64,000 nucleotides of DNA from Eledone cirrhosa (taxonomy: Eukaryota), in NCBI GenBank assembly GCA_964016885.1, contig OZ024742.1, forward strand, positions 338,148,001 to 338,212,000, in the 5' to 3' direction. This document shows, one piece after another, positions 1 to 59,931 of this stretch. The position numbers were made by a program, and so were the translations under genes. Each line of letters starts with the position of its first letter. The first letter of the stretch is position 1. The notes under the pieces were generated by a model. That model had not been told where the DNA came from and did no database searches. It was given only the letters and a program-made list of their open reading frames with translations.

Positions 1-250
1 TTTACATTCATTTAATTTATTGAATTATTGAGATTTTTTATCTGAGTGTCCCGAATCTTCCGGATCGCAAATTTTCGATCGTACGGTTGATTATAGACTT
101 GTTCTGTGTGTGACGGTATTTTAACGATAGTTATAGCTCTGATTTATCTAAATTATGGAGCACTCTGCCGCTCATATCGAATTTTGTTTATCGTGAACTC
201 GTGCGCCGATTTTTCGATACTCGATTATTCTACTATATATATATATATAT

Positions 251-23610: not shown

Positions 23611-23845
23611 GCGCAGTGTGACAAGAAGCTTGCTTCCCAACCACATGTTTCCGGGTTCAGTCCCTCTGCCCGGGCCGACCAAAGCCCTGTGAGTGGATTT
23701 GATAGACCGACACTAAAAGAAGCCTGTCGTATGTATGTCTGTGTGTGTCTTTGCATTTGTGTTTGCCCTCCCAACAATGCTTGTTTGTTAGTTGACGTCC
23801 CAATAACTTACCAAGGTGATGCTCCAGCATGGGCATAGTCCAGAG
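23611..23845 (+). mobile_element. Second tRNA-derived SINE family (octopus OK/OR-like), internally deleted
   Basis: AAGAAGCTTGCTTCCCAACCACATG..CCGGGTTCAGTCCC head and GCCGACCAAAGCC.TGTGAGTGGATTTG body. Paralogs at 36735-36965, and at 56180-56267 plus 59933-60075. Confidence 0.7.
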
Positions 23846-24509: not shown

Positions 24510-24563
<54 letters not shown>

Positions 24564-25626
24564 CAAATACAAATGTTTATATATATATATATATATATAA
24601 GGGATACAGATATTGTTTGTTCACTGTCACCAAGCATCTCAATTCATTCGTTGCAACTAAGTTTGTGATCGAGGTACTTTATTTTGCAAGGTACTATTTT
24701 TCCCTTGAGTTTGGGACTCCAGAGAAAAGTAATATTTTGTATCTTTGGTATTTTGAGTTTACGGTTTGAATTGTAGAATTGTCTATCTACTCATAATATT
24801 GCAACAGCTAACAGTGAGATATAGAATTTTAAAAAAAGAAGTTTTTTTGACTAAGATCAAGTCTTTGAGAACATTCACGTCTATCTTTCAAAAATTTGAA
24901 TTTTTTGCTTTTGTTTTGGACTGAGACGTTTTTGTATTTAATTTGTACGAGTACTTTTTAAAGATTCTATCATAACTTGATTTGGTCCAATAATCTACTG
25001 ATATCAAAATCAGTAGTATATTGAAAAATGGAAAAATAGGGCTGGAGGGCATTTCGTGATTTTGAGAGGCAAAAATGGGTGTTTGCCCATAATGGGTTGA
25101 GAACCTGTGATTTAGATCTACATAAATTCTTATTTCTACCTATACCTTCTTTCCTTTCTTCCATTCCCATTCATGTCTACTTATTTCTATCACTAATCTG
25201 TTTTCTTTCTTGATAAAAGTGATAGTTCATTATTTAATTTTAGTTTGTAGTTAAACATGTTACATAAAAGAACTTTTAGTTAATTTAAAGAAAATGAAAG
25301 ACCATTTTGTTGGTATCCCCAGGTCAGACTGTGTGTATATTTATTACATATGACATATTCCTATTTCTGACTTACTATGTGTATATATTTCCAATATCAG
25401 TCATACTGTATATATATCCTATTTCAATCATACTGTCATATATATTCCTATATCTGATTTATGTATGTATAACCACGACTGTAGTCAAGAAACTTTTCTC
25501 TAATGACTTATAATGTGTCAACAATGAAAATATCCCTAATATTTTCTCTCTTTATATATTTCAGATTATCTGAAACTGTTTCTTTACAACTGAAACATCT
25601 TCAGACTTTCACAAAGATAACAGTTG

Positions 25627-26340
25627 TAACCACACAGCCCCCTGTTTCTTCTAAAATATTTTATCATATATATATATATATATCATCATCATCATCATTT
25701 TACGTCCGCTCTTCCCTGCTCGCAAGGGTGGGACGGGTCTTATTCAGTACAGCATCTCTCCACTCGTCACGGTCCTCCACCATGAACTTCAACGATCTGA
25801 GGTCTGTTCTCACCACCTCCGCCCATGTTTTTCGTGGTCTACCCCGTCTTCCTTCAACTGGCATTTCCTGGCACTTCTTCACCCATCGGTCATCCTCCAT
25901 GCGCATCACATGTCCATACCACCTCAGTCTCCTCCCGTACACTACATTCTATCCCTCTCTCTATATATATATAGCCAAAATAGCATATAAAACATTGACA
26001 CAAACACACCAAACAATGCCACATCTTCAGCCACCCCTAATTGTTACATAAACTGGTTTTATTGCTAAGGGTGGTAATAGTTTCCTGTTGTGAATCAGTA
26101 GCTTATAAAGCTAAAGTTGCTAGTATATAAAGAATATAAGAAACAAATATACATAATACAGACGGGTGTCTTTTGATGTGTGTGCACCTACATCTCTCCT
26201 TTCTAATGATATATAATGTGTCAACATTGAAAATATCCCTAATATTTTATTCTTTCTTTATATATTTCAGATTATCTGAAACTGTCTCTTTACAACTGAA
26301 ACATATTCAGACTTTCACAGAGATAAGAGTTGAAGAAAAT
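25627..26340 (+). repeat. Ectopic copy of the ZNF-A upstream region (3164-~3890) inserted in the ZNF-B exon
   Basis: Near-identical to 3164-3890, including the RTE fragment and splice acceptor; absent from the ZNF-C unit. Confidence 0.9.
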
Positions 26341-26411
26341 ATAGTCTTGAAAATAGTTTGTGAAAAATTCAAGAAGAAAAGTAATTTTCTGTTTTGTAAA
26401 GAATATTTGAA

Positions 26412-28730
26412 ATGATGGAGAAAAAAGCATACCATTGTGTTACCTGTGGTCAATCTTTCCATTCTAATTCTTCTTTACGAAGCCATAAACATATTCACAA
26501 TGGTAGAAGACAATTCCGTTGTGATATCTGTGGTAACATATGCCCTAGTAATTCTTCTTTAACTATACACAAACGTAGTCACACTGGAGAAAAACCATAC
26601 CGTTGTGAAATCTGTGGTAAAGCTTTCTCTCAGAGAATTAATTTATTAATTCATTCTCGTAGTCACACAGGAGAAAAACCATACCACTGTGATATCTGTG
26701 GTAAAACATTTTCCGTTAAATATTACATAACTACACACAAACGTATTCATACAGGAGAGAAACCATACCATTGTGATATTTGTGGTAAAACATTTTCTAC
26801 AAAGTGTCAATTAAATGCACACAAGCGTACCCACACAGGAGAACGACCATTTGAATGCGATATTTGTGGTAAAACATTTTCTAAAAGAAACACTTTAACG
26901 TACCATAAACATATTCATACGGGAGAAAAACCATACAAATGTGATACATGTGGTAAGAGTTTTGCACTGAGTCAGTATTTATCTAATCACAAACTTATAC
27001 ATACAGGAGAGAAGCCATACCACTGTGATATTTGTGGTAAGACATTCCTTCGAAATAGACAGTTATCACTACACAAACGTATCCACACAGGCGAGAAGCC
27101 ATACAACTGTGATATCTGTGGTAAAGCTTTCAGAATTTCTGGTCTTTTAACTCAACACAAACGTACTCACACTGAAGAGAAACCATTTCATTGTGATATC
27201 TGTGGTAAATCATCCACTAATAGTTCTGAATTAGCCAAACACAAACTTGTTCATACTGGAGATAAACCATATCCTTGTGATATCTGTGGTAAAAACCTTT
27301 CTAGTAATAGTCATTTAACCGCACACAAACGTATTCACACAGGAGAGAAGCCATACCATTGTGATATCTGTGGTAAAAACTTTTCTAGCAATGGTAGTTT
27401 AACCGCACACAAACATATTCACACAGGTGAGAAGCCATACCATTGTGATATCTGTGGTAAAACATTCACTCACTCGAGTTCTGTTTCATCTCATAAACGT
27501 ATTCATACTGGACAAAGACGATATCCTTGCAATATCTGTGGTAAAATATTCACAGCTGGTAATTCTTTATCTAACCACCAAAATATTCACACAGGAGAGA
27601 AGCCACACCAATGTGATATCTGTGGTAAAGCATTTTCTCAAAATGGTAATTTATTGAGGCATAAACGTCTTCACACAGGAGAGAAACCACATCATTGTGA
27701 CTTCTGTAGTAAGACCTTCTCTTGTAGTAGTAACTTGAAAGAACACACTCGCACTCACACAGGAGAGAGGCCATACCAATGTAAAATTTGTGGTAAATCA
27801 TTCTCGAAATATAGTCATTTATGGAGCCATAAACGTATTCACACAGGAGAGAAACCATATCACTGTGATATCTGTGGTAAGTCATTCTCAACTATTGCTT
27901 CTTTAGCCAAACACAAAACTATTCATAGTGGAGATAAACCATACCCTTGTGATATCTGTGGTAAATATTATTCTACTAATATTATTTTAACTAGACACAA
28001 ACTTATTCACACAGGAGAGAAGCCATATCATTGTGTTATATGTGGTAAAACGTTCTGTGACCCGAGTTCTCTTTCATCTCATAAACATATTCATACTGGA
28101 CATACTAGAGAAAAACATCATTGTAATATCTGTGGTAAAACATTCACAGCTAGTCATACTTTATCTGAACACCAAACTATTCACACAGGAGAGAAGCCAC
28201 ACCAATGTGATATCTGTGGTAAAGCATTTTCTCGAAACAGTAGTTTGTGGACACATAAACGTCTTCACACAGGAAAGAAACCATATCATTGTGACTTCTG
28301 TCGTAAGACCTTTTCTCACAGTAGCACTTTGATACAACACATCCGTTCTCACACTGGAGAGAAACCATATCAGTGTCATATCTGTGGTAAATCATTCTCT
28401 CAAAGTAGTGATTTATTGACCCATAAACGTATTCACACAGGAGAGAAACCATATCACTGTGATATCTGTGGTAAGTCATTCTCGTATAGTTCTTCTTTAG
28501 CCAAACACAAACCTATTCATAATGGAGATAAACCAAACCCTTGTGATATCTGTGATAAAACATTCACTCACCTGAGTACTCTTTCATGTCATAAACGTAT
28601 TCATGCTGGACACACTAAAGGAAGACAATATCATTGTAATATCTGTGATAAATCATTCTCTCAAAATAGTCATTTATTAAACCATAAACGTATTCACAAA
28701 GGTAATAAACCTAAAAAGACACTGAACTGA
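26412..28730 (+). CDS. C2H2 zinc-finger protein (ZNF-B), 772 aa, 27 tandem fingers, no effector domain
   Basis: Intact ORF; fingers start at residue 9; candidate acceptors at 25563-25564 and 26269-26270. Confidence 0.95.
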
Positions 28731-29109
28731 GAGGAATAAAGTCAACGCACTCCAACCTCTGTCACAGACATGTTTTCACTTCTCTCTGCTTTTTCTACCA
28801 CAACTCCAGTGGCCTCTGTTCCTCATAGGTGGCTACTTTTGTAACAACTCTACTGAAGTTCTAACGTACTTAAGTCACATGTCATTTCTAATATTGCCTG
28901 CCAACACTAACTACTTACATTGTATAATCATCATCATTTTCCATTGAATGTTCTATGCTGGCATGGGTTGGATGGGACTTTTTGAGGCAATGTTTTACAG
29001 CTACCAATCTTTCAGTCACTTCCTATGGCATGCGGGTATATGGACTACATATTCTAAACCGGATACACTAATTTTGTCACTGTTGTGTAATGTATTTTTA
29101 ATTATTTTG

Positions 29110-30092
29110 AATAAAAACCACCTGATCGCCTATAGATCCAGGGAGCATTCTAGTCAGATAGATTTTATCCTTACCAGAGGACGTGATAAATGAATGGTTG
29201 TAAACACGAAAGCCTTCCTCGGTGAGCAATGTGCCTCCCAACAGAATTTAGTAGTCAACGACCTCATTGTCAGAGCTAGACAAATTTGGAAACAGAAGAC
29301 AACATGGAGAAGAAAGGTCTGGAAGCTGAAAGAGCCATAACCACGTGTATTGTAAATGAAGAAATACTAGATGGTGTCGTACTGAATGATAGGTGCAGCA
29401 GCATCATTGTCAACTGCTACAAGTGTAAAGGAGACGTACTAGATAGAGGCATCAAGGTAATGAACCAGATCTTGAAAGTAATAGAGAGAGTTATTGCACA
29501 ACTGATTAGGGACCGGGTAAATCTAGACGAGATGCAATTCAGATTTGTACAGGCAAAAGCATCACAGATGCTCTCTGCTTTGTGAGACAGTTACAGGAAA
29601 AGTAACAAGCTAAAAGTAAGCCGCTCTACCTGGCATTTGTCGACCTGGAAAAAGTATTCGACAGAGTGACCTGTGCCGTATTCTGGTGGGCCCTTAGAAA
29701 ACTAGGAGTAGATGAGTTGCTTGTGAAGGCATTACAAGCCATGTGTAGGGGAGCAGTTAGCAAAGTTAGGATTAACACTGAGTTTAGTGGGGAATTTAGC
29801 GTACAGGGTGGCATCCATCAGAGCTCTGTTCTTAGCCCTTTCCTGTTTATCATACTACAGGCTGTAACAGGAGTTTAAGACAGGCAGCCCATGGGAACTT
29901 CTGTATGTGGATGATCTTACAGACATAGCAGAATCTATGGTGGAACTAGAGAAGAAATTCAAAACTTGGAAGCAGGGCCTAGAAAGAAGGGGTCTAAAAG
30001 TCTACCTGACAAAGACTAACGTCCTATGCTGGCTGAGAAGTAACAGTAGACAGCTTCTGCTACCTGGGTGACCAAATTAGCAGCGGAGGTGT
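29110..30092 (+). mobile_element. Decayed, internally deleted RTE LINE
   Basis: NHLIAYRSREHSSQIDFIL, SIIVNCYKCKGD, WWALRKLGVDE. The paralog at 42820-44030 is longer. Confidence 0.88.
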
Positions 30093-31619
30093 ATTCTCAC
30101 TCAGTGGAAATTATTCAAGTAAAATGTCCATTGATCGATTGTGATTGAATAGTGTGTTATTGGCTACCAAGATAATACAGATTATGGTTGGCTACCAATT
30201 TGAAATAAGATACAGAAATGTATTCATGTCAAGTAAAATCTCATGGGCAAATACATTTAATGGATGGCTTCTTGACGAAAAAGTCGTTATAGCTGATGAA
30301 TGGTAAATCATTAAATGGTGATGTTTGAATATCAATCAAGCCAAATTTGCAAACTACAATTTCTAAAACATAGCAAAAAATCCAAATATGGTCCATGTAG
30401 TGGATAGATGTATTCTTTTCAGGATGAATGATAAAAAGAATGATGCCAGAATTGTTTATTTTACAATAACAAAGTTCACTTATTGGTACATTGAATATCA
30501 AGTAATAAAATTGTGACATAAATTATCACTGCATTATTTTCTTACTTACTACTTCGAGCTAGCGTGTATGCATGTATCAATAAAACGATACAATAGAAGT
30601 GAAATGACAGGAAGCCGAAAGGATAGATAAATTGTAGTAGTGAAATATATAATTGTTTCTACTTTAGGCACAAGGCCAGCAATTACCCAGTGCATTACTG
30701 GTACTTTATTTTATCGACGAAACCTACTATGTGTGTGTGTTTGTTTATCCTTAGTTTACGTTGCTCCTGTAGTTGGTCAATCTGCTGAGCTGGTATGAAA
30801 TGTGAGAGCATGTAAGGCTAGGAGAGAGAAAGAGTAAAAGGTCTGTAGATAGTGAATGGCTACATTGTTAACCTCTCACAGACTGCTGCTTCGGGGTCTC
30901 TCTGGTGGACACTAAGTACAATAGGTGGTTTTAGAGGTGAGAACCCTCAGATTTAGTTTTGAATCTTCCCCAGGTAAAATATAGGAGTATTCCGTTACAG
31001 TCTAAATATACAGAAAAGTCAAATTGTACCAACTTTGGCAGCACTGCTTGACAGTCTCCAGTTGTAGCCGTAGGTCAATTCTAATCCAGTAGTTTTATAA
31101 CAAGCATAATCAGTTGAATGACTACATTTGTTGTTCCTCTTATACAGTGACTCTATTTAGTTGAGAACAATACTGCACACTCTGTGATGCAGCATAGCAG
31201 TCTGGGCATGTACTTTTATCACTGTCCAGTATATTTCCTCTGCAGTTAACTATTTATGTTGTACTCCCTATGAGACTAGAGAAGCTGTCTTACATGGCTG
31301 CGTTTGTAAGGCTGCGTCTTTAGTTTGCTGTCTTTTGTAAATAGATCATGGCAACATGAAGGAAAAAGACAGTTTCATTATTTGAATACTCTTATTGAAA
31401 TGTAGAATATAAAATTGAGAGAAAAATACTTCAATTACTGAAAATGAAACTTAAACTTCAGAATAATCAATAGAGTTAAAGTGTGTATGGGGTGAGGTGA
31501 AGGAAGATGTAGAGAAATAGTTGAAAGATTATATTAGAAGTAAATGATTCAATATGTCTTGCCATTAAGACTTGATAATTTGTCCAAGGTGGTTCAACTA
31601 GTCATGTTCCGAATAATCA

Positions 31620-32690
31620 ACTGAGCGATGCTGCAAATGTATGTTTGCAGTTTCCTCATGTGATTCTTTCGCCACCAAAGAGTACACAGCAGTCTGTATA
31701 AGTTGGAGGTTGGCATAAGAATGGGCAATCTCACCTACAATGTGTTGGCAATGGAGGTCATCCTAAAGGTAGCAATGTGTTGGTCAGGTACAACAGTGCT
31801 TGGAGAGGGATTTCGAATGGATCCTCTAAAAGCCTTCATGGACGACACGAGTCCTTGCCACAAAGGAAGATGAAACACATAGGGTATTGGAACAGTTGAC
31901 TAAGGTAGTTGAATCTTCCAGAATGAGGTTGAAACAAAAAAAATCCCTTACAATCAAAGAAATAATGAGAAGCACTCAGGCCAATAGGCAAGGACTGGCT
32001 GTATAAAAATGGAATGGTCATTAGGGGCCAGTGGACAGATGAGGAGAGGTCTAATTTTACAGGTGAAGAAAATAGTGAATTCCAGACGGCAGTACAGCAG
32101 AGCCAACAGGGTCTGGATGGTTTGTGGCATAAGTTATCTCTCAGAATCATTTCGAACATGAATTTAGAGAAGTGGGGCTAATCAGATAGACCCGAGTACA
32201 CACTCTGCCAGGGTAGACAGACAGTGGAACACATTCTGAGCTCATGCAGAGTAGTACTAGCGCAGGGTAGATGCATGTGGAGACACAATTAAGTAGTTAA
32301 GGAAATCGTACATGTCATAAGTACAACAAAAACAAAACCCATTGTACGAGAATCTCCAACATCATTCTATATGGCAGGGGGCAGCAAATCAAGGCTAGGA
32401 ACAGCTATGCCATACAGGGTACAAGAATCAAGTTTTCTGAATTGTACGTATGACTGGCTGGATGTGTACATCAGGCCTCCTAGGGTCAGCAAAGCAAACA
32501 GAAATCATCAGAAAGAATGGTTTGAGGCCGGATATCATATTCCATTTAAATTCATCGAAACAACTGATTTTGATTGAACTGACCATGTCATTTAAAAGTA
32601 GAATAGAAGAAGCACATATGTTCAAGACCGAAGGATACCCCAGTTTGGGCAACAGACTGAGAAATGCCGACTTCCGAGTCAGGATGAGGA
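31620..32690 (+). mobile_element. HERO-like (R2 group, RLE-encoding) non-LTR retrotransposon remnant
   Basis: Broken frames give LAMEVIL, PLKAFMDD (RT), LCQGRQTVEHILSSCRV.LAQGR..WRHN (CCHC knuckle) and LRPDII..SKQLILIELT..RIEEAH (RLE). Confidence 0.8.
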
Positions 32691-33269
32691 GGATCAAAAG
32701 CGGCCTCCATCCCGTTTGAGGGCACAGTGTTTGTATTTCACACAACATGTATTACCTCCTACTACTACTAACATACACTGTCTAGTACTACTACATGTAG
32801 ACTAAGGAAAATAACTGAGTGCGTATGTCTTGTAGTGGTGGCGGAGGCGGTGATACTGTTGACTCTCCGCCACCATGAATACGTTCAAGATCAAGAAAAC
32901 GTTTAAATATAAGTTTGAAATCAGCGGCAACGGAGAGGAGAACCAACTAAATCCTGTTATCAAAACCAAAATGCGGTTTAAATACACAGAAAGTCTTCGA
33001 TACCAGAATGGCTAAATGCCAACAGAAGGGCACTCAGGAGCCATGACTTGGATGCGGTCTGGACCTTCTAGAGCGTAAGAAGTTAAGGGCAGAAGCTCAT
33101 GCTCGTGGGGTCTGTGAAGACCTGCTCTCCTAAGAGTTTCTTACCACCACCCAGACCCTTCGCCCGACCCCCATTTACATAATGCTCTGCCTTACATCAT
33201 CACATGTCTGACTCGTTTCTGGGTACACCAAACTATCCTTTTCTCTCACTTCGTTATGCAATTACTCTT

Positions 33270-33597
33270 TTTCTCTCTCTCACTTTTCCACCCTTACATT
33301 TCATACACGATTCTCCTTTCTTATTACTTCACACTTTCTCTCTTTCTCTTTTTTCTCCCTCACCTTATTAACTGCGGAATTATATGTTTATTTACTTCCG
33401 CCCTCCATTACATTTCCTTAATTCTCAGTTAAAATATTTTGGTCTGAAATTTTACATCTTTTCACTTCTCACCTTTCTGATATAAAGTATCTTTATCTGA
33501 AATATATTATCTGTCCCACACGGAACATATGAGATTAACAATAGAGAAATATTTGAATTGAAAAACTATCGGAGGAACATACGAAGAAGAGGTTAGT
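33270..33597 (+). promoter_or_regulatory. Putative promoter and non-coding first exon of ZNF-C (paralogs 17330-18438 and 46640-46971)
   Basis: Non-TE block conserved in all three units: ETS-like ACTTCCG (33394), Inr-like TCAGTY (33425) and donor GAG|GTTAGT (33591/33592). The unit 3 copy has the canonical GAG|GTAAGT (46965/46966). No transcript evidence. Confidence 0.45.
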
Positions 33598-36476
33598 AAT
33601 TTTGAAAGAATTTATTTGTGAAATTTTATTAATAAACGTGAATTGTTGGTGATATTCTGTGTAACTTACAACATATAAATATATATGAATAAATAATCTA
33701 CAAACGATCAACGTGACAACATCTGTTTAATTAACAAAATTATATTTGTTCCACCTCGACTCTATTTTATCAACATTGGCCGCCAATTATGTTATCAAAT
33801 CAACTCCTTTCTCTTCCCAATTGTCTCCTACTGAAAACGGTGGGGATATCTTTATATAGATCTACCCTATATCATTCTAAAATAACAGGATGAACTGAAT
33901 AACAGTTCTTGTCACGGTAGCACCTTATTTAATGTATTAAGTGATGTCCACGGAGGAGCCCGGTTATTGTAGCAGCAATACTCCTGTTTTGTTGACTTGC
34001 CTGAAAAGTTATTAGAGGGAAAATTCCAGTCCCTTTTGTGCTGTGTGATTGAGTGCCCTAACCACCCGCCCCTTTATACATAAGAATTTGACAGGGTTCT
34101 GTTTATGCAAACAAAGGAAGCTGATTCCAGAGAACTGCAACTGGTGCATAGCCCCACACCCTGACACCGATCACCGCAGCTCCTTGCACTAGTCTTTTGG
34201 TACCACAATGATTTCATTGTCATACATCTTCTGTGTCCTCCATCACTGACAGTCCCGTGTAAGCCCTTCTGCATTCTCCAAATGAAGTCGAGCTTCTGGA
34301 GATCTTCCTTAATCACATCTAGCAATTTTGTGCAGGCCTCTTCCAACCCTCAGCTGCTGCATTAAACGAGAGTAAGGCACTTCTAGTATGATCTGGCAGA
34401 AGGTAGACTATACTAGAAGTGTGTACCAACACATGCAGCAGATGTCTCTGAGAGAAGGGGATTGCAAGCTGTATGCATGCAACTGTTGATCCTTTTTGTG
34501 AGGGGCTACGTTTCTGCTCCATAGTGAACAGACCGAAACATTGTAGATATGGAGCTTCGTCTTCCAGAATATAGAGCAGTGGTATCAAAGAGGCTTCTGT
34601 AGGGAATGCATAAACCCGATGGCTAGATCACATCTGCAGTTGATATGAATGGAGTCAGGTCTTCAATGTTGGTGATTGTGGAGTCCTGGTTAATGGAGAA
34701 GCTGATGAACTCCACAATGCTATAGAACCGTTGGAGCAGGGTGGTGTGCTGATGAGGCTGAGAATTTTCAAGAGGGATGCGTGGTCGACCATGTCGAAAA
34801 CTGCGTTGTATTCAGAGAAAGAAACATATAGGTCCTGATGTTTGCAGAATTCCCAACGTCTATTAATAATGAAACGGAGGATTGAAATGTGGGTGGTGGA
34901 AGATCAATTTGGCAGGAATCTGGCTTGTAGGTGACATCTGCTTCTAATGGCTGAGAAGGATCTTGGTGAAGAGCTTCCTCAGGTTAGGGAAGAGGGTGAT
35001 GCCCCTGTGGTTGTTACAGATGAGTTTGTCACCCTTCCGTTTCCAGAAAGGGAGGGTGGTGCCCCATTGTCCAGTCATTTGTGAGCTGCTCCGACACCTA
35101 TATATAGTTGATGATACATGTGACTCACTGGTTCATTATCTCCATCCAGGTTGTTGTTCCTTGCCTCTGTCACCAAGCACCTGTCTTCTTTCTCTGAGAA
35201 CTTCTCCCAGTTATCTGTGATGATCTTGTTGTATATCTGGTTGAGCCAGCAGTACTCATGTTGCTATGCAGGTGGGTATGTGATGTCAGTTGATTATCTC
35301 TAGCAGTGAAATCGCGGCCAGTTTCGGAAAAGGTGTTGAGTTTACCAGGGTGACACGCGCAGACGGGTTGATGCTTGATTGGAAGATCTTCCGGTTTGCA
35401 GTCTTGTCCTTGGCCAAGGTACTGAAGTGATAGGTGATAAAACACATCAATGTAGACATGAAGTACTTCAGTAGTGACTCAGTTTGTGAAAAGCTGTCCA
35501 ACTCTTGGTAGTAGAGAAATGGATGTTAGATCATTATACTAATAAATAGTTAGGAATTTATAGATACAGATCAATCAGGTACTGTTTATTTCTGTCTTAT
35601 GAATTTTATATCCTAAGTATGGCAATATAGGAATACTGATTATAATAATTCTCTTGATACATTAGGATTTAATAATGAGTAAAATAATTAAACAGAGTTT
35701 ATGTGGTGGGGTGGATGTTTATACTAGGCTAAAATAAGGATTGGTAAAAAGAATCACCTTAAGACACTCCCAAAACTAACAAACAAGTTCTGTACAACCA
35801 GATCTGATCTTTTTTTATTATATATAGAAGACACTGAAATCCAGTGGAATATTGTTTTGTGACTGTTGTTTAAGAAATTTGGCTATTTAGATGAAAGGTT
35901 CTCAACGATGGGGGCGCTGGAAGGCTCTTTCCTTTGGTAAACTTTATAAGCCATATTTGTACATTTCTGAGACAGCTGGTGTGAATGCATTTGAATGAAG
36001 AAAACAAAGAAAATAAATAAAAGAATCTTGTCAACGCATTCCCTAGGGAGATAAATAAAAGATAAACGAAAGAAATCAAAGAAAATGAAAATAAGGGAAA
36101 CGTCAACTATGACAACAGTTACAAGAAAAATTCAACAGAAATGACAAGAAAGAGAAGCAATGGTGATGAAGGGTGTGGGTGTATACTTATACGTGCATAC
36201 ATACGTATGAACATACACACACATGCATACATACACATATATACCCACATGGGCCAGCATTGTTGTTTGATGAGGTTGAAAAACTGTGGTAGTTAATATC
36301 CCTAAGTAATAAAATCTGGAGACAAAATTCTCTCCTTAACAAAAAAACATACAACATGTCAATATCCTTATAGACACATATACACACACTTAAATATAAA
36401 TGCATGCATATATATAAATGTATAGCTATATACATATGTAAATGTATGTATGTAGATTTATATATATATATATATT

Positions 36477-36508
<32 letters not shown>

Positions 36509-38224
36509 TTTTCTTTTTCCATGTGGTCTACCTCTGGTGGTAGGGTCCGTACTGTAGATAGAACTCAATGTAATCCAGTAAAATCCATAGAGAAGTTCTG
36601 TTTCACTGACTTAATTCTTTAGATACAGTCAGATATTGGGTATTAAATTAACAATGAAAATAAAAACAACAAAGTTATAAAGTAACTTGACTTGGTTCCT
36701 TTTATATTCATTATTAATTTAATACCATATATATGCGCAGTGTGACAAGAAGCTTGCTTGCCAACCACATTTCCGGGTTCAGTCACACTGCCCGGGTTAA
36801 CCAAAGCCCTGTGAGTGCATTTGATAGACCAAAACTAAAAGAAGCCCGTCATATATATGTCTGTGTGTGTCTTTGCATTTGTGTTTGCCCTTCCACCAAT
36901 ACTTGTTTGCTTGTTGACGTCCCAATAACTTACCAAGGTGATGCTCCATCATGGGCGTAGTCCAGAAACAGGAAAAAAGCAAGTGTATATATAGATGTGT
37001 GTGTGTGTAGAAGAGGCGTCTCAACCTCAAGGGCACAAAAGAGCCATTACGTCCTGGAGGAGAGGCACAGTGGGCCAAACGTGGTGGTGGGTGATGATTT
37101 TCACCAGTTATAATCATTTCTACTATAAGCAAAAGGCATGAAATTTTGGGTTTAGGGTCCTGTCGATTACATCGATCCCAGTTCACAACTGGTACTTAAT
37201 TTATCGACCCCAAAAGGATGAAAGGCAAAATTGAGATTGGCGGAATTTGAACTCAGAACGTACAAACAGAAGTACTGTTAAGCATTTCGCCAGATGTGCT
37301 AACGATTCCACCAGTTCACCGGCTTATTTTCACCAGTTATAATGCAATCTGAAATATTGGTTCTACCATGGGCCATAGAAAAGTAGTTTGAAGCCCCTGT
37401 TGAAGAGATGGATAGATAGATAGACCACACACACATTTCCTACTCTGTCTGTCACTCCCTATTTCTCTATTCATTTATATATATATATATATATATATAC
37501 ATAAGGCATTGTCATGTTGAAAAGAACAGTGGCGTTTGACCCAGCAATAAAAACTGCAAACAAAATTCTTTCTGTAGCAATTCATTCGTTGCAACTAAGT
37601 TTGTGATCGAGGTATTTTATTTTGCATCTTTGGTATTTTGACTTTACAGTGTGAATTGTAGAATTGTCTATCTACTCAAAATATTGCAACAGCTAACAGT
37701 GAGATATAGAATTTAAAAAAAAAAAGCTTTTTCGACTGAGATCAAGTCTTTGAGAACATTCACGTCTATTTTTCAAAAATTTGAAATTCTTTGCTTTTGT
37801 TTTGGACTGAGACTTTTTTGGATATAATCTGTACGAGTATTTTTTTTATATTCTAACATAACTTGATTTGGTCCAATAAACTACTGATATCAAAATCAGT
37901 AGTATATTGATAAATGGAAAAATAGGGGGGGGGGGGTCATGATTTTGAGGGGCAAAAGGGGGTGTTTGCCCAAAATTGGTTGAGAACCTGTGATTTAGAT
38001 CTACGTAAATTCTTATTTCTACCTATACCTTCTTTCCTTTCTTCCATTCCCATTCATGTCTACTTATTTCTATCACTAATCTGTTTTCTTTCTTGATAGA
38101 AGTGATAGTTCATTATTTATTTTTAGTTTGTAGTTAAACATGTTACATAAAAGAACTTTTAGTTAATTTAAAGAAAATGAGAGACCATTTCGTTGGTATA
38201 CCCAGGTCAGACTGTGTGTATATG

Positions 38225-39810
38225 TATTATATATGACATATTCCTATTTCTGACTTACTATGTGTATATATTTCCAGTATCTGACTTACTATATATTTAT
38301 TGTGTATATATTTCCAATATCAGTCATACTGTCATATATATCCTATATCAGTCATACTGTCATATATATTCCTATATCTGACTTATGTATATATTTCCAA
38401 TATCAGTCATACTGTATATATATCCTATATCAGTCATACTGTCATATATATTCCTATATCTAACTTATGTATATATTACCAATATCAGACATACTGTATA
38501 TATATCCTATATCAGACATACTGTATATATATCCTATATCAGACATACTGTCATATATATTCCTATATCTAACTTATTATGTATATATCATAGATTTTAC
38601 ATGTGGCCGGTGTTCTGGTGCAATAAGTAGCAGCAAGTGTCCACAAAATACTAGCTCTTTCAATTGCGCAGAGGGTTCTATAGAAATAGTGGACAGCTTC
38701 CGTTACCTGGGCGATAAAATCAGCAGTGGGGGAGGGTGCTCTGAAAGTACTGTAGCTAGAGTCAGAACTGGTTGGAAAAAGTTCAGAGAGCTTATACCAC
38801 TATTAGCTGCTAAAGGGTTCTCCCTAAAAATGAAAGGCAGGTTGTACGATGCCTGCATACGAACAGCAATGTTGCATGGCAGTGAGACCTGGGCATTGTG
38901 TGCAGAGGATATACGCAGACTAGAGAGGAACGAAGCTTGCATGCTCCGCTGGATGTGTAACAGTAATATACGTGAACGGCAAAGCATAAACGAACTAAGG
39001 AAAAAATTAGAGATAAGAGGGATCAGATGTTGTTTACTCGAGAGAAGGCTACGTTGGTATGGACACGTGATGCGCATGAAAGTCGATAGCTGTATAACAA
39101 AGTGCAGGGCAATAAAGATAGACGGTAGCCACGGAATAGGCAGACCTAGAAAAACCTGGGACGAGCTGATAAACTCCGACCTCACACACTTACACCTCTC
39201 CAAGACAATGTCACTGGACCGAGACCTTTGGCGGTACTCAGTAACAGAGAAGACCCGCCTTGCCAGTAGGCATCTCTAACAAAATACACCCCGTCCCACC
39301 ACCACCCCCACCCCATCCACACCACCCCGTTCTATGTAAAGTTATGTTGGTGCCGCGCCATCCAGGCCGAAACAAATGAGATCGTGTAGGTGTCACGACA
39401 AAAAAACACACAGTCCACGCTGTAATGTGGCCGTGTAGGCAACACGGTAAAAACCTCCCAGACCCACACTGTAAATGTGGTTGGTGTTAGGAAGGGCATC
39501 CAACTGTAGAAAACCTGCCAGACAGTCCTATGCGAGCAAGACAATCACTCTTGCCTCAAGTGGGACTACCCCCGTCCAAACCCATGCAAGCGTGGAACAC
39601 GGACGTTAAACGTTGATGATGATGATGATGATGATTACCAATATCAGACATACTGTATATATATCCTATATCAGTCATACTGTCATATATATTCCTATAT
39701 CTAACTTATTATGTATATATTACCAATATCAGACATACTGTATATATATCCTATATCAGTCATACTGTCATATATATTCCTATATCTGACTTATTATGTA
39801 TATATTACCA
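38225..39810. repeat. AT-rich minisatellite (~26-28 bp, TATATATCCTATATCAGTCATACTG-like) interrupted by an RTE
   Basis: Arrays at 38225-38588 and 39636-39810; only a few units at the paralogous site 25340-25470. Confidence 0.85.
38589..39635 (+). mobile_element. Young 5'-truncated RTE LINE
   Basis: Open frame FTCGRC..DSFRYLGD..RRLRWYGHV..GRPRKTW to the stop at 39279, then 3' UTR and (GAT)n tail; near-identical to 55309-56173. Confidence 0.93.
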
Positions 39811-40043
39811 TGATTGTAGTCAAGACACTTTTCTCTAATGACTTACAATGTGTCAACAGTGAAAATATCCCTAATATTTTATTCTCTCTTTATATATTTC
39901 AGATTCTCTGAAACTGTTTCTTTACAACTGAAACATCTTCAGACTTTCACAAAGATAACAGTTGAAGAAAATATAGTGTTGAAAATATTTTGTGAAAAAT
40001 TCAAGAAGAAAAGTAATTTTCCGTTTTGTAAAGAATATTTGAA

Positions 40044-41909
40044 ATGATGGAGAAAAAAGCATACCATTTAGTTACCTGTGGTCAATCTTTCCATTCTAAT
40101 TCTTCTTTAACTATACACAAACATATTCACATTGGAGAAAAACCATACCGTTGTGAAATCTGTGGTAAAGCTTTCTCTCAGAGAATTAATTTATTAACTC
40201 ATTCTTGTAGTCACACAGGAAAAAAACCATACCACTGTGATATCTGTGGTAAAACATTTTCCGTTAAATATTATATAACTACACACAAACGTATTCATAC
40301 AGGAGAGAAACCATACCACTGTGATATCTGTGGTAAAACATTTTCTACAAAGCATCAATTAAATGTACACAAGTATACTCACACAGGAGAACGACCATTT
40401 GAATGCGATATTTGTGGTAAAACATTTTCTAATAAAAGCACTTTAACGTACCATAAACATATTCATACGGGAGAAAAACCATACAAATGTGATACATGTG
40501 GTAAGAGTTTTGCACTGAGTCAGTATTTATCTAACCACAAACTTATACATACAGGAGAGAAGCCATACCACTGTGATATTTGTGGTAAGACATTCCGTCT
40601 AAATAGACAGTTATCTGAACACAAACGTGTTCACACAGGCGATAAGCCACACCATTGTGATATCTGTGGTAAAGCCTTCAGACTTTCTGGTCATTTAACT
40701 ATACACAAACGTACTCACACTGGAGAGAAACCATTTCGTTGTGATATCTGTGGTAAGTCATCCACAACTAGTTCTGATTTAGCCAAACACAAACTTGTTC
40801 ATACTGGAGATAAACCATATCCGTGTGATATCTGTGGTAAAAACTTTTCTAGCAATGGAGATTTAACCAGACACAAACGTATTCACACAGGAGAGAAGCC
40901 ATACCATTGTGATATCTGTGGTAAAACATTCACTCACTCGAGTTCTGTTTCATCTCATAAACGTATTCATACTGGACAAAGACGATATCCTTGCAATATC
41001 TGTGGTAAAATATTCACAGCTGGTAATTCTTTATCTAACCACCAAAATATTCACACAGGAGAGAAGCCAAACAAATGTGATATCTGTGGTAAAGCATTTT
41101 CTAAAAGGTGTAATTTATTGAGGCATAAACGTCTTCACACTGGAGAAAAACCACATCACTGTGATATCTGTAGTAAGACCTTCTCTGATAGTGGTTCCTT
41201 GAAAATACACACTCGTTCTCACACAGGAGAGAAGCCATACCGGTGTGATATCTGTGGTAAATCATTGTCTCAAAATAGTCATTTGTTGAACCATAAACGT
41301 ATTCACACAGGAGAGAAACCACATCACTGTGATATCTGTGGTAAGTCATTCTCAACTATTGCTTCTTTAGCCCAACACAAAACTATTCATAGTGGAGATA
41401 AACCATACCCTTGTGATATCTGTGGTAAATACTATTCTACTAATATTATTTTAACTAGACACAAACTTATTCACACAGGAGAGAAGCCATATCATTGTGT
41501 TATATGTGGTAAGACGTTCAGTAACCCAAGTTCTCTTTCATCTCATAAACATACTCATACTGGACATACTAGAGAAAAACATCATTGTAATATCTGTGGT
41601 AAAACATTCACAGCTAGTCATACTTTATCTGAACACAAAACTATTCACACAGGAGAGAAGCCACACCAATGTGATATCTGTGGTAAAGCATTTTCTCAGA
41701 AAAGTAATGTGTTGAGACATAAACGTCTTCACACAGGAGAGAAACCACATCATTGTGACTTCTGTAGTAAGACCTTCTCTTGTAGTAGTAACTTGAAAGA
41801 ACACACTCGCACTCACACAGGAGAGAAACCATACCAATGTAAAATTTGTGGTAAATCATTCTCTAAATATGGTAATTTATGGAGCCATAAACGTATTCAC
41901 ACAGGATAG
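40044..41909 (+). CDS. C2H2 zinc-finger protein (ZNF-C), 621 aa, close paralog of ZNF-B, truncated by TAG
   Basis: First finger degenerate (C>L), then 21 intact fingers. The stop is a GAG>TAG change in a TGEKP linker. Acceptor AG at 39901-39902. Confidence 0.88.
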   Translation: MMEKKAYHLVTCGQSFHSNSSLTIHKHIHIGEKPYRCEICGKAFSQRINLLTHSCSHTGKKPYHCDICGKTFSVKYYITTHKRIHTGEKPYHCDICGKTFSTKHQLNVHKYTHTGERPFECDICGKTFSNKSTLTYHKHIHTGEKPYKCDTCGKSFALSQYLSNHKLIHTGEKPYHCDICGKTFRLNRQLSEHKRVHTGDKPHHCDICGKAFRLSGHLTIHKRTHTGEKPFRCDICGKSSTTSSDLAKHKLVHTGDKPYPCDICGKNFSSNGDLTRHKRIHTGEKPYHCDICGKTFTHSSSVSSHKRIHTGQRRYPCNICGKIFTAGNSLSNHQNIHTGEKPNKCDICGKAFSKRCNLLRHKRLHTGEKPHHCDICSKTFSDSGSLKIHTRSHTGEKPYRCDICGKSLSQNSHLLNHKRIHTGEKPHHCDICGKSFSTIASLAQHKTIHSGDKPYPCDICGKYYSTNIILTRHKLIHTGEKPYHCVICGKTFSNPSSLSSHKHTHTGHTREKHHCNICGKTFTASHTLSEHKTIHTGEKPHQCDICGKAFSQKSNVLRHKRLHTGEKPHHCDFCSKTFSCSSNLKEHTRTHTGEKPYQCKICGKSFSKYGNLWSHKRIHTG

Positions 41910-42444
<535 letters not shown>

Positions 42445-42819
42445 GAGGAATAAAGTCAACACACTCCAAATTCTGTCACAGACATGTTTCACTTCTCTCT
42501 GCTTTTTCTACCACAACTCCTGTGGCCTCTGTTCCTCATAGGTGGCTACTTTTGTAACAATTCTACTGAAGTTCTAACGTACTTAAGTCACATGTCACTT
42601 CCGATATTGCCTGCCAACACTAACTACTTACATTGTATAATCATCATCATTTTCCATTGACTGTTCTATGCTGGCATGGGTTGGATGGGACTTTTTGAGG
42701 CAATGTTTTACAGCTACCAATCTTTCAGTCACTTCCTATGGCATGCGGGTATATGGTCTACATATTCTAAACCGGATACACTAATTTTGTCACTGTTGTG
42801 CAATGTTTTTTTAATTATT

Positions 42820-52002: not shown

Positions 52003-54774
52003 TCATCATCATCACCGTTTTACGTCCGTTCTTCCACGCTAGCATGGGTTAGACGGGTTGTCCTGTTGTGGGCAGTGTCTGGTCGGCTGACCATGCCTTG
52101 CTCATACAGGAACTGATCTGGCTTGATTTCTACAGCTGGATGCCCTTCCTAACACCAACCTCATTTACAGTGAGTGCTGGGTGCTTTTTCGTGGCGCCTA
52201 CACGTCCACTTTACAGTGTGGGCTGGGTGCTTTTTTGCCGTGGCACCTCCACGACCACCTTGCGGTGGGGGGCATATTGTTTATATGCTTCAGCATGTAC
52301 CCATGGGAGGTCGGGTACCCTGTATTACTGCGTGACGCCAGAAGTCACGGTCGTGTGTCATTGACTTTGAGAGGTGTAGTTGGGTAAGGTCGGCTTTTAT
52401 CACCTCATCCCAAGTCATCTTGGGTCTCCCCACTCCGCGGTTTCCATCAACTTCTAGTGCTCTGCACCTTTTTATGCAGCTGTCATCCTTCATACGCATC
52501 ACATGTCCATACCAGCGTAACCGCCTCTCCTGCACGCAGCATTTGATTCCTCTTATGCTCAGTCTCTCTCTCAATTCCTTTATGCTTTGTCGTTCACGTA
52601 TATTACTGTTACACATCCATCGGAGCATGCAGGCTTCGTTTCTCTCTAATCTACGTAAGTCTTCCACCTTCAGCGCCCAGGTCTCACTACCATGCAACAT
52701 CGCTGTTCGGATACACGCATCATACAGTCTGCCTTTCAATTCTGAGGGAGAAGCCTTTTGCAGCTAGCAGTGGTAGTAGTTCCCTAAACTTCTTCCATCC
52801 CGTTCTTACCCTAGTTATTGTACTTTCTGAGCACCCACCTCCGTTGCTAATTCGGTCACCTAGGTAGCAGAAGCTGTCTACTGTTTCTACAGGGCCCTCC
52901 CAGAGATTGGTGGTACTTGTTTCCTGTGGCTGTTTGCTTGCTGTTTCAGCACAGCTGCTGCATGTGAATCCTACATTCTTAATTAAGCTTCCTGAGATCC
53001 CGCTACATCTCTTGTGTACCCATTGTTTGCATTTGGGGCAGAGAATGGAGTTCCTACCTACACCTTTCCTACATACTGAGCAAGGCCATTTCCCTGAGGG
53101 GATCTGGGTTCTGTTTTCTCGTCTACTTATAAGGACCTTAGTCTTTGTCATGTTGACTTTGAGGCCCTTTCTCTCTAGTCCCTGCTTCCAGGTTTGGAAT
53201 TTATTCTCTAGTTCTACCATAGATTCAGCTATGAGTGCGAGGTCATCAGCATACAGGAGTTCCCATGGGCATCCGGTCTTAAACTCCTCCGTTATTGCCT
53301 GCAGGACTATGATGAACAGGAGAGGGCTAAGAACAGAGCCCTGGTGGACCCCAACCTGTACGCTAAATTCCTCGCTATACTCATTGCCAATCCTAACTTT
53401 GCTGACTGCTCCCCTATACATGGCTTGTACCGCTTTCACAAGCCATTCATCTACTCCTAGTTTTCTAAGAGCCCACCAGATTACTGCACGTGGAACTCTG
53501 TCAAAGGCTTTCTCAAGGTCGACAAATGCCAAGTAGAGTGGCTTACTTTTAGCTAGGTACTTTTCCTGTAATTGCCTCACAAGGAAGAGGGCATCAGTGG
53601 TGCCTTTCCCTGGTACAAACCCAAATTGCATCTCGTCTATATTCACCCGGTCCCTAATCAGCTGTGCTATAACTCTTTCTGTTACTTTCATGACCTGGTC
53701 CATCAACTTTATACCTCTATAGTTTCCTCTATCTAGTGCATCGCCTTTACCTTTGTAGCAGTTGACAATGATGCTACTGCACCAATCTTTTGGTATGGCC
53801 CCCTCTAGTATTACCTGGTTAACGATACGTGTGGTTATAGTGTGACCTACAGACCCAGATGCCTTCAGCATCTCGGCAGCTATACCCGATGGACCGGTTG
53901 CCTTCCCTATCTTCATATCTCTGATTGCCTTACTTACTACGCTGCCGCTGACTTGTACTGCTGGTCCCTCTATAGGGTCTACGTGGGGTAGGGTCTCTTC
54001 TTCCCATGCATTCTCCTCATTTAGTAATCTATCATAATGACTCTTCCATGCATCTTTCTTCTCAGCACTTGTGAGGGCAAGCTCACCTTTATCATTCTTT
54101 ATCATACACTTCTCTCCAATGACATCACAACTATCTCTGACACACTGCCTCGCAATCTTGAATACCTCCTGTTTCTGGTCCTCACGTTGTAAAACATGCT
54201 TGAATTTTCTATCCTCTGCTTCCCTCCTAGCTAAGTATACTTGTCGCCTAGCTTCCCTCTTGGTCTCTATGTAATGTACCCTGCTCCCCCCGTTCTTCCA
54301 TTCTTTCCATGCCTGTCTCTTGGCCTTGACTGCTTCATCTACCTTATTGTTCCACCACCAAGTCACTCTCCTCCTGCTTGAGGTCTTACTCCAGCCACAA
54401 ACCTCATCCGTCGCCTCTAGTAAGTTATTTTTTAGGAACTCCCAGTTCTCTTCTACGTTAAATGTCTCTATCTGTTCTTCTTTACTGTCGTAGGCGTTGA
54501 GTAAAATATCTTTAAATCTGTTACTGGTTGAGGGGACTTTCAGCTTCCAGATCTTTCTTCTCCAGGTTGGCCTCTGTTTCAGGGCTCGTCTAGTTCTGAC
54601 CGTGAGGTCGCTGACAACTAAGCTATGTTGGGATGTACATTCCTCACTAGGGAAGGCTTTTGTGTTTACGACCGTCCATCTGTCACGTCCTCTGATGAGG
54701 ATAAAATCTAACTGACTAGAGTGCTCCCCTGATCTATAGGTGATCAGGTGGTTGTCGGGTTTTTTAAAGTTTGT
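52001..54774 (-). mobile_element. Young 5'-truncated RTE LINE (end of APE, full RT, C-terminus, 3' UTR)
   Basis: Frame open from 54774 (TNFKKPDNHLITYRSG) through NYRGIKL, QGSVLSP and YADD, with one frameshift near 52740; (GAT)n tail at 52001 next to (TA)n. Confidence 0.96.
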
Positions 54775-54788
54775 TTTTTAAAGTTTTT

Positions 54789-56173: not shown

Positions 56174-56546
56174 ATATATGCGCAGTGTGACAAGAAGCTT
56201 GCTTGCCAACCACGTTTCCAGGTTCAGTCTCACTGCCCAGGCCGACCAAAGCCCTGTGAGTGCATTTAATAATAATAATAATAATGAAATTATTGTGTAC
56301 AGTGCTCAGGTGCACTACAACTCATCAAAGGTGCATGTATAGTACATAGAATAATGTACAAATGTCAGGAAAATAAACAGTGTATGAGTCATGATATAAT
56401 AACAATAACAATAATGAAATATTGTGCACAGTGCCCAGGTGCACCACAACCCATCAAAAAAGTGCATGTACAGTACATAGGGCAATGCACAAACATCAGT
56501 AAAATGAACAGTGCACACATGTGTGCATGTGTATGGAAGGGGCACA

Positions 56547-59312: not shown

Positions 59313-59368
59313 TTTGTACCCTGCTCGCAGTTTATGATGGTGTGTAGAGGGTGGCAGGTTGTTCTGGT

Positions 59369-59931
59369 TTAGTTTCCCAGAGTTGTAGCAGTTTTTACAT
59401 TGCCAGTTATTGTGGGTAGATCACACTCAGACCAGCTGGTATCTCTCTTCCACGTTTCACCAGCCTTGACAAACCTCCAGATCTGCCCATCATCACGCAG
59501 ACTGAAACTTTCATCTCGTGCTGAGTTCCGATTCAAGGAAGCTGCAGCACGTAGTTTTGGACGTACATGGGGTGGTAGGCCTGGGCGTGTTCGGAAGGTA
59601 ATCCGATTTTCACGCCCAGCTTTAGCAGAGGCCAGATGATATGAGGTTGCCTCTGCGGGGTCCGAGAAAGACAGCCTCATGAGTCTGGGTTTTGGACCAG
59701 GTCGACCAAGGCGGAGGGCACCCTTTGGGGGAACACAGCCTAGGTCTTTGGCCGAGCTGGCAGCAAATGCCTGAAGATCGGCCTTGTCCTCTGGTACCCC
59801 AATGGCAATCACTTCATGGGTAGCAGATTCCGCAGTCTTTTCAGTCTTTCCAGCAAGAGGTACAGGGAGATTCTTTAGCAAGGCATTCCGATAAGACCCC
59901 TCATTGTGGGGTCCTACCCGAATGCTTGCCT
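59369..59931 (-). pseudogene. CR1 ORF1 C-terminal part
   Basis: Matches ORF 62443-63057 (VIAIGVPE, RLGRPGPKPRLMRLSF, RRM-like). The N-terminus of the listed 265-aa ORF is flanking SINE sequence. Confidence 0.85.

What the first reader, a model, noticed from the sequence alone, without database searches (positions are those of the whole stretch)
26412..41909. ZNF-B versus ZNF-C substitutions concentrate at DNA-contact positions -1, 2, 3 and 6
Seen (helix -1..6, B vs C): QRINLLI/QRINLLT, TKCQLNA/TKHQLNV, KRNTLTY/NKSTLTY, RNRQLSL/LNRQLSE, ISGLLTQ/LSGHLTI, NSSELAK/TSSDLAK, SNGSLTA/SNGDLTR, TIASLAK/TIASLAQ, DPSSLSS/NPSSLSS. Several need multi-base codon changes (TGT/CAT, CTA/GAA, CAA/ATA, AGT/GAT, GCA/AGA) while scaffolds are much more similar. 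Known: this is the signature of KRAB-ZNFs and PRDM9. Inference: a KRAB-independent, rapidly re-targeting DNA-recognition system, plausibly in an arms race with the young RTE and CR1 elements around it.
Basis: partly seen in the sequence, partly recalled or inferred. Interest (0 to 1): 0.8.

Follow-up and report, generated by a model that had tools for sequence, protein, structure and literature searches.

The report
Octopus zinc fingers under diversifying selection
A tandem cluster of zinc-finger genes, in a genome that is likely an octopus's, changes the amino acids at its DNA-reading positions about 2.4 times faster than silent sites while keeping the fold, which likely means selection keeps giving these proteins new DNA targets, possibly mobile elements, though no target is shown.

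Summary
All 9 helix pairs and 5 codon pairs are in the sequence. Between B and C, 21 of 80 contact codons differ in amino acid versus 27 of 480 others (p=1.6e-7); contact pN 0.151, pS 0.059. B and C belong to a cluster of 22 C2H2 loci over about 0.43 Mb. Across 9 paralogs omega is 2.4 at positions -1/2/3/6 and 0.14-0.45 on the scaffold (p=4e-10). The result survives double-hit, per-finger-tree, CpG-free, tree-free and M1a/M2a tests, and vanishes in fingers stranded behind a shared stop codon. Positions -1, 2 and 6 carry it; 3 alone is not significant. The multi-base changes all have one-step intermediates in paralogs. No KRAB or PR/SET domain was found, so these are not KRAB-ZNFs or PRDM9. The two neighbouring LINEs are young, but they are genome-wide families absent from the duplicated units, and nothing links them to these proteins. 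The transposon arms-race idea for octopus ZNFs is already in print; a codon-level test in a cephalopod was not found in 6 searches.

The parts
26412..28730 (+). ZNF-B: intact 772-aa ORF, 27 C2H2 fingers, no other domain
40044..41909 (+). ZNF-C: 621-aa ORF, 21 complete fingers plus a fused first finger that lost a Cys, ending at a TAG in the linker before finger type 22; the same stop is in paralogs F, H, I, J, K, M, N
41910..42445 (+). Decaying remains of finger types 22-27 behind C's stop (in-frame stop, lost Cys/His, frameshift); used as the neutral control
3959..5818 (+). ZNF-A: older paralog, 619 aa, 21 fingers; too diverged for finger-by-finger alignment
26215..26411 (+). Conserved 5' region of B: pyrimidine tract and TTTCAG (predicted splice acceptor, exon from 26271), then a 141-nt leader with stops in the ZNF frame; predicted non-coding
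   Evidence: splice site inferred from sequence, no RNA
39845..40043 (+). The same 5' region of C (predicted exon start 39903)
27276..27422 (+). B fingers 11 and 12: internal duplication of finger type 12, the fastest-evolving finger (contact omega 8.75)
27696..27842 (+). B fingers 16-17: block that matches C fingers 20-21 (41754-41900) rather than C fingers 13-14; block shuffling or conversion
29116..30025 (-). Old RTE-like fragment inside the duplicated unit (about 82% to the young copy); its counterpart behind C is at 42829-44037; older than the duplication
52201..54777 (-). Young non-LTR element with RT and PHD domains (RTE-like; clade name recalled, not tested by a tree)
56400..59931 (-). 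Very young LINE with endonuclease and RT in one 957-codon frame (CR1-like; clade name recalled); a second copy, 95% identical, starts at 62489 on the + strand

Best explanation
B and C are members of a tandem family of C2H2 zinc-finger genes whose helix positions -1, 2 and 6 accumulate amino-acid changes faster than synonymous sites while the fold is conserved, which likely reflects repeated selection for new DNA-binding specificities, with lineage-specific repeats or mobile elements as the predicted but untested targets. Shown: whole units of about 11-14 kb duplicate in tandem; fingers are gained, lost and swapped in blocks; a shared stop makes a shorter form whose upstream part stays under purifying selection; contact codons change step by step, mostly in a subset of fingers (types 4, 6, 7, 11, 12, 15), while types 1, 2 and 19 keep their contacts. 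Inferred: the proteins bind DNA through these helices (established knowledge of C2H2 fingers); the variable fingers set the target; lacking a recognisable effector domain they would act by occupancy or by recruiting partners through the constant fingers; the selective agent is a changing target, most plausibly repeats anywhere in the genome and not specifically the neighbouring LINEs. Odds by step: positive selection at contacts 0.9; its cause is changed nucleic-acid specificity 0.8; the driver is mobile or repetitive DNA 0.5; the driver is these two LINE families 0.1.
For: Omega contact 2.40-2.47, helix -2/+1/+5 1.04, other scaffold 0.45-0.48, C/C/F/L/H/H 0.14-0.15; LRT 39-42, p<=4e-10. With double-nucleotide changes allowed 2.2-2.3, p<=1.5e-7. 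Per-finger trees 2.46, 4-finger-block trees 2.20. CpG-free columns 2.28, p=2e-7; tree-free count 79 contact nonsynonymous changes on 186 sites versus 74 synonymous on 438, ratio 2.5, p=1.5e-8. M2a over M1a p=5e-13; 7 of 7 sites with posterior >0.95 and 12 of 17 with >0.9 are contact positions. Four disjoint gene pairs give ratios 1.7-2.7, pooled 1.97, p=8e-5. pS (0.055) is not depressed against non-coding flanks (0.035 and 0.049). Behind the stop the contrast disappears: private changes 7 on 202 contact sites versus 33.5 on 1087 scaffold sites, p=0.03 against a 2.4-fold rate. 3 of 5 other finger sets elsewhere in the genome give omega 2.5-3.3. Wells et al. (PMC10547256, sections 6 and passages) report predicted octopus ZNF motifs enriched in TE consensus sequences.
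Against: No target, binding or expression evidence: no RNA holder was listed. Position 3 alone is not significant (omega 1.44, LRT 2.1); with a class-specific synonymous rate the contact contrast falls to 2.4 versus 1.32 (LRT 6.35, p about 0.01), and for the whole helix to LRT 3.0. 2 of 5 other finger sets show no excess (omega 1.29 and 0.90). About 36-40% of informative site pairs are incompatible with one tree, so tree-based p-values are too small. The post-stop control rests on 7 events. The youngest copies (F, I, J, K; 0-3 coding differences) have identical contact residues. Contact positions are rich in Ser/Thr (22 of 47 at position 2), residues that specify bases weakly (recalled). All selection tests used my own codon-model code, not PAML or HyPhy, and one haploid assembly.
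Confidence: 0.5

Rival explanations
1. Same positive selection, different driver: duplicates are selected to take on new host regulatory targets (neural or developmental neofunctionalisation), with no transposon conflict.
For: Selection signal is identical under this reading. Holzinger et al. (PMC12513265, summary and passages) report neural expression of expanded cephalopod C2H2 genes and paralogs in different co-expression modules. No local link to the LINEs.
Against: Recurrent change at the same few codons with many states (6 codons at finger 4 position -1, 6 at finger 12 position 2) and high turnover (4 of 21 loci broken) fit a moving target better than one-off recruitment (inference).
Confidence: 0.25
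2. The target is non-transposon repetitive DNA or RNA (satellites, microsatellites, centromeric or drive elements, viral or transposon RNA), with the arrays acting as chromatin or RNA binders.
For: Long arrays (21-27 fingers) with no recognisable effector domain; Wells et al. [quoted passage not shown]
Against: Selection falls on the canonical DNA-reading positions; no direct evidence for any such target.
Confidence: 0.13
3. No positive selection: contact codons are merely unconstrained, and the excess comes from CpG decay, multi-nucleotide mutations, gene conversion from other fingers, misalignment or depressed synonymous rates.
For: Heavy mosaicism; CpG-touched columns evolve about twice as fast; the TGT/CAT pair is explained by two deaminations of CGT, which paralogs E and H carry; double-hit parameter improves the fit; synonymous rate at contact codons is 1.3 times average.
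Against: Each was tested and the excess stayed: CpG-free 2.28, double-hit 2.2, per-finger trees 2.46, tree-free 2.5, strict pairs 0.138 versus 0.051; pS not below flanks; contact variants match another finger type no more often than synonymous ones (12 of 77 versus 14 of 62 at 15 nt); no excess behind the stop.
Confidence: 0.08
4. A PRDM9-like system that marks recombination sites and is driven by erosion of its own targets.
For: Same positions under selection.
Against: None of 14 PR-domain matches in the genome lies near this cluster; fingers within a gene are 65-67% alike and closer to the matching finger of a paralog (0-7 of 63 nt) than to their own neighbours (6-20); multigene cluster.
Confidence: 0.04

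Closest known systems
Coleoid cephalopod expanded C2H2 zinc-finger genes (PMC12513265; Albertin et al. 2015 recalled and seen only as cited)
   Same: Host is likely an octopod; long tandem finger arrays; many recent duplicates on several chromosomes.
   Different: That paper (summary, introduction, first results part and keyword passages read) covers phylogeny and expression, has 0 occurrences of 'nonsynonymous', and calls the transposon arms race an open question. Here a single cluster is resolved to codon level.
Cyprinid FiNZ-ZNFs (PMC10547256)
   Same: KRAB-less, recently duplicated ZNF clades with dN/dS>1 enriched at base-contacting residues.
   Different: FiNZ-ZNFs carry a 28-aa N-terminal domain on an upstream exon and knockdown derepresses TEs; here no N-terminal domain is evident and no function is shown. 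For octopus that paper gives motif prediction and sequence entropy, not dN/dS.
Tetrapod KRAB-ZNFs
   Same: Tandem clusters, birth and death, all fingers in one reading frame, positive selection at contact residues.
   Different: No KRAB found; no TRIM28 route shown; TE binding untested.
PRDM9
   Same: Rapid change at -1, 2, 3, 6.
   Different: No PR/SET domain, not a homogenised minisatellite, many genes rather than one.

Membership tests
KRAB-ZNF | N-terminal KRAB domain | tested here: not met
   None in ORFs A, B, C, none in 112 + strand frames of 30 aa or more between B and C, 0 of 14 candidates genome-wide (no positive control rang, so that search alone is weak).
KRAB-ZNF | Tandem C2H2 array with TGEKPY-type linkers in one reading frame, genes in clusters | tested here: met
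KRAB-ZNF | Positive selection at helix positions -1, 2, 3, 6 | tested here: met
   Met as a class and for -1, 2, 6 singly; 3 not significant alone.
KRAB-ZNF | Binds TE families and silences them through TRIM28/SETDB1 | not testable with these tools
   No binding or expression data.
PRDM9 | PR/SET methyltransferase domain in the same gene | tested here: not met
   14 PF21549 matches in the genome, none at C3:338.0-338.6 Mb; none.
PRDM9 | Homogenised minisatellite-like finger array | tested here: not met
   65-67% matches between 84-nt units.
FiNZ-ZNF-like (accessory domain on an upstream exon) | Conserved coding exon upstream of the finger exon | tested here: inconclusive
   Leader after the strong acceptor has stops in the ZNF frame; a second possible AG just before the ATG is followed by a 4-nt deletion in H and an 11-nt insertion in U, against a coding junction. 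No RNA to map exons; exons under 30 aa were not scanned.
Cephalopod expanded C2H2 ZNFs | Coleoid host | tested here: met
   Molluscan haemocyanin in the genome; its best single-unit match is PDB 1JS8 at 855 bits, next 738; 1JS8 is Enteroctopus dofleini FU-g (PMC4491423 passages). Octopod is an inference from one gene.
Cephalopod expanded C2H2 ZNFs | Lineage-specific multi-copy expansion in clusters | tested here: met
   22 loci in this cluster; related arrays on at least 7 other contigs.
Cephalopod expanded C2H2 ZNFs | Placement in a published expansion clade; neural or embryonic expression | not tested
   No named cephalopod orthologs among the 120 listed hits; no RNA.

The most novel reading that the evidence does not exclude
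Octopods run an effector-less, finger-only adaptive defence against mobile DNA: tandem ZNF genes split their arrays into variable target-reading fingers (types 4-7, 11-12, 15) under recurrent positive selection and constant fingers (types 1, 2, 19) that serve as the docking surface for a silencing partner in place of KRAB, re-targeting by point change and block swapping against currently active LINEs.
Probability: 0.15. Interest if true: 0.8.

Novelty: new member of a known kind. Interest (0 to 1): 0.45.

Why it matters
Why cephalopods expanded C2H2 genes to more than a thousand copies is stated as an open question (PMC12513265; PMC12988792 section 2.4): neural regulation or transposon defence. 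Published support for the defence view in octopus is correlational or based on predicted motifs. This cluster gives direct sequence evidence that the DNA-reading residues are under diversifying selection in an invertebrate family with no KRAB, and it names the fingers and near-identical paralog pairs that differ almost only at those residues, which makes a binding test cheap to design. It does not decide between the two drivers, and the pattern itself is familiar from KRAB-ZNFs and fish FiNZ-ZNFs, so a specialist would be pleased rather than surprised.

Tried and rejected
Expression and exon structure: no RNA holder listed; laying contigs of 4 runs on 14000-30000 and 4 runs on 26150-26445 gave no usable splice joint. 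Orthologs from named cephalopods: two protein searches were dominated by long vertebrate arrays at 31-56% identity, so no cross-species dN/dS; the Atlas search gave only generic C2H2 clusters; the RT protein search gave mostly unnamed 47-56% relatives and did not name the clade. First full codon-model run timed out and was rerun with 9 genes. PHI-like recombination test was not significant (p=0.06 and 0.08) because incompatibility is high at all distances. Rejected: ZNF-C as a plain pseudogene (scaffold pN 0.020-0.027 against pS 0.053-0.072 versus F, H, N); multi-base changes as single events (intermediates CGT/TAT, CAA, CTA/AAA, AAT, ACA in paralogs); templating from other finger types. Binding-motif prediction against the LINEs was not attempted: no recognition-code tool was available, and Wells et al. 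report that only 11 of 236 predicted human motifs matched measured ones. Three look-ups of earlier scan findings returned nothing. Supplements of the papers were not opened; Supplemental Fig. 8 and Data 3-4 of PMC10547256 bear on what is known for octopus.
Full report
1. What is in the window. A six-frame scan finds three C2H2 arrays on the + strand: A (3959-5818, 21 fingers), B (26412-28730, 27 fingers, 772 aa) and C (40044-41909, 21 complete fingers, 621 aa). Pfam finds only zinc-finger models of note in them. C stops at a TAG inside a linker, and remains of six further fingers follow, with another stop and a frameshift. The window lies at G000:C3:338148001-338212000 in a 3.0-Gb genome. The genome encodes molluscan haemocyanin whose best single-unit match in the PDB is 1JS8 (855 bits, next 738), which PMC4491423 (passages) names as Enteroctopus dofleini; the host is therefore likely an octopod.

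2. The observation. All nine helix pairs and five codon pairs are as stated. Matching fingers by DNA distance gives 20 pairs; two caveats are B's duplicated finger type 12 and B fingers 16-17, which match C fingers 20-21. Amino-acid changes: 21 of 80 contact codons, 27 of 480 others, p=1.6e-7; strict set of 14 pairs 14 of 56 and 16 of 336, p=8e-6. Contact pN 0.151, non-contact pN 0.027, pS 0.059; contact pN above pS at p=4e-4. A contrast with the scaffold alone would be expected from relaxed constraint; the excess over pS is what points to selection.

3. The cluster. Reading 400 kb downstream and 100 kb upstream shows 21 arrays from 338.152 to 338.540 Mb and one more of 12 fingers at about 338.114 Mb. 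17 of the 21 have ORFs with 19-27 fingers; E, Q, S and T are broken. About 11-14 kb around each young gene is duplicated with it. Fingers were assigned to the 27 types of paralog D by collinear alignment. The codon tests used 9 of 21 loci (B, C, D, F, G, H, L, M, N). Left out: I, J, K (0-3 differences from F or each other), E, Q, S, T (broken), A, U (too diverged), O, P, R (more distant; used only to list codon states and CpG columns), B fingers 16-17, fingers that failed the assignment rule, and all fingers behind a stop or frameshift.

4. Selection tests (own MG94-type code). Fixed classes: omega 2.40 (F3x4) or 2.47 (flank-like base frequencies) at contacts, 1.04 at -2/+1/+5, 0.45-0.48 other scaffold, 0.14-0.15 at C, C, F, L, H, H; omega=1 rejected at p=4e-10 and 1e-10; with double-nucleotide changes 2.21-2.26, p<=1.5e-7. 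Per-finger trees 2.46 and block trees 2.20, both p<1e-7; by position -1 2.85, +2 2.24, +6 3.16 (LRT 14-34), +3 1.44 and +5 1.36 (not significant); Cys and His 0. With separate synonymous rates the contact class gives 2.4 versus 1.32 (LRT 6.35), a weaker result, and the whole helix is not significant (LRT 3.0). CpG-touched columns (73 of 756; 15 of 108 contact columns) evolve twice as fast, but the CpG-free set still gives 2.28, p=2e-7; a tree-free count that scores each codon state once gives a ratio of 2.5, p=1.5e-8. Without prior classes, M2a beats M1a (p=5e-13; 7e-8 with double hits) and 7 of 7 sites at posterior >0.95 are contacts. In 36 of 36 gene pairs contact pN exceeds pS (not independent); four disjoint pairs pool to 1.97, p=8e-5. 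pS 0.055 is not lower than leader (0.035) or 3' flank (0.049) divergence. Natural control: in tails behind the shared stop (C, F, H, N) contact pN 0.103, scaffold pN 0.080 and pS 0.080; private changes 7 on 202 contact sites versus 33.5 on 1087, below a 2.4-fold rate at p=0.03. Selection is uneven: finger types 4, 6, 7, 11, 12, 15 have LRT above 7, types 1, 2, 19 have contact omega 0. Elsewhere in the genome, finger-tree tests gave omega 3.2 (C25 family, 39 unique fingers from 10 loci), 2.5 and 3.3 (two single genes), and no excess in two others (1.29, 0.90); 6 of the 20 fetched loci were not tested.

5. How the changes arise. Each of the five multi-base differences has a one-step intermediate in a paralog (CGT or TAT; CAA; CTA or AAA; AAT; ACA), so they are successive substitutions; TGT/CAT fits two CpG deaminations of CGT. 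Contact variants do not look copied from other finger types (12 of 77, against 14 of 62 synonymous and 12 of 84 other nonsynonymous variants). The genes are mosaics: 36-40% of informative site pairs are incompatible, whole fingers are duplicated, lost or swapped, and B took its 5' block from A.

6. No effector domain found. The ATG is preceded by an in-frame stop four codons upstream; the conserved acceptor 141 nt upstream leads into a leader with stops in the ZNF frame, and indels in H and U argue against a coding junction nearer the ATG. Homologous leaders of dispersed ZNF loci also carry frame-breaking indels. 112 frames between B and C give no KRAB, SCAN, BTB, ZAD or SET match. KRAB was not found genome-wide, without a positive control; none of 14 PR-domain matches is near the cluster. 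Without RNA an upstream coding exon of unknown family is not excluded.

7. The transposon link. The RT-PHD element at 52.2-54.8 kb has 40 of 40 scored copies at 95-100% identity and the endonuclease-RT element at 56.4-59.9 kb 40 of 40 at about 99-100%; the names RTE and CR1 are recalled, not tested. But the young copies are not in the duplicated units, the RTE-like fragments that are in the units are old (about 80% to the young copy; B and C 3' regions 95% alike), and both families are spread over the genome. Proximity is therefore no evidence of targeting. No binding prediction was made.

8. Literature. PMC10547256 (abstract, section 6 and keyword passages read): predicted octopus ZNF motifs enriched in TE consensus sequences, contact residues among the most variable by entropy, dN/dS only for zebrafish FiNZ-ZNFs. 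PMC12513265 (first of 7 parts and keyword passages): expansions and expression; arms race called an open question. PMC12988792 (section 2.4 and passages): sets out both readings. Six searches on this question listed no paper with a codon-level test of cephalopod ZNF contact residues; the library lacks most subscription journals and supplements were not opened.

9. Verdict. A real and statistically solid signature of diversifying selection at DNA-reading residues in a KRAB-less, likely octopod ZNF cluster. It works like KRAB-ZNF and FiNZ-ZNF clusters in its evolution but is a member of neither, nor of PRDM9; it belongs to the known cephalopod C2H2 expansion. The driver is open: repeats or mobile elements about 0.5, host regulation about 0.25, the two neighbouring LINE families about 0.1. 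Novelty: new member of a known kind; interest 0.45.

Noticed in passing
L056, L061-L070 (about 135-255 nt before the first finger); window 26330-26350: ZNF genes on at least 8 contigs share a homologous 5' region of 200-300 nt with frame-breaking indels. 7 of the 20 dispersed loci carry a three-codon upstream frame of the Met-Glu-Ile-stop type in its best-conserved box; the C3 cluster has the box without the ATG. No shuffle control. May be a shared translational control element.
   Followed up: partly
window 25624-26414 and 3161-3961: B's 5' block is 97% identical over 801 nt to that of the distant paralog A and interrupts an older leader copy at 25355-25626: B is a chimera of A's 5' end and a C-type array.
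   Followed up: partly
window 41907-41909; paralogs F, H, I, J, K, M, N: One GAG-to-TAG change in the linker before finger type 22 is shared by 8 loci; 7 of them keep exactly 21 complete fingers although C's set differs from the others.
   Followed up: yes
window 56400-59931: The CR1-like LINE has an intact 957-codon frame and at least 10 other copies identical over 1 kb; 3091 candidates in the first look. Looks like a family active now.
   Followed up: partly
L051-L060 (G000:C25, 20.2-23.6 Mb): A second ZNF family with more homogenised fingers (RSNHLTT repeated within genes) and contact omega about 3.1 on a finger tree; more PRDM9-like in array dynamics than the C3 cluster.
   Followed up: partly
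G000:C3:338273700-338341000 (paralogs F, I, J, K): Four copies with 0-3 coding differences; very recent duplication or assembly duplication, not resolved.
   Followed up: no
window 38303-38587 and 39634-39810: 27/82-85-nt tandem repeat just upstream of the leader in many paralogs.
   Followed up: no
G000:C1:173.74-173.91 Mb and C26:21.93-22.02 Mb: Haemocyanin genes in two clusters (three tandem copies on C1, an inverted pair on C26).
   Followed up: no
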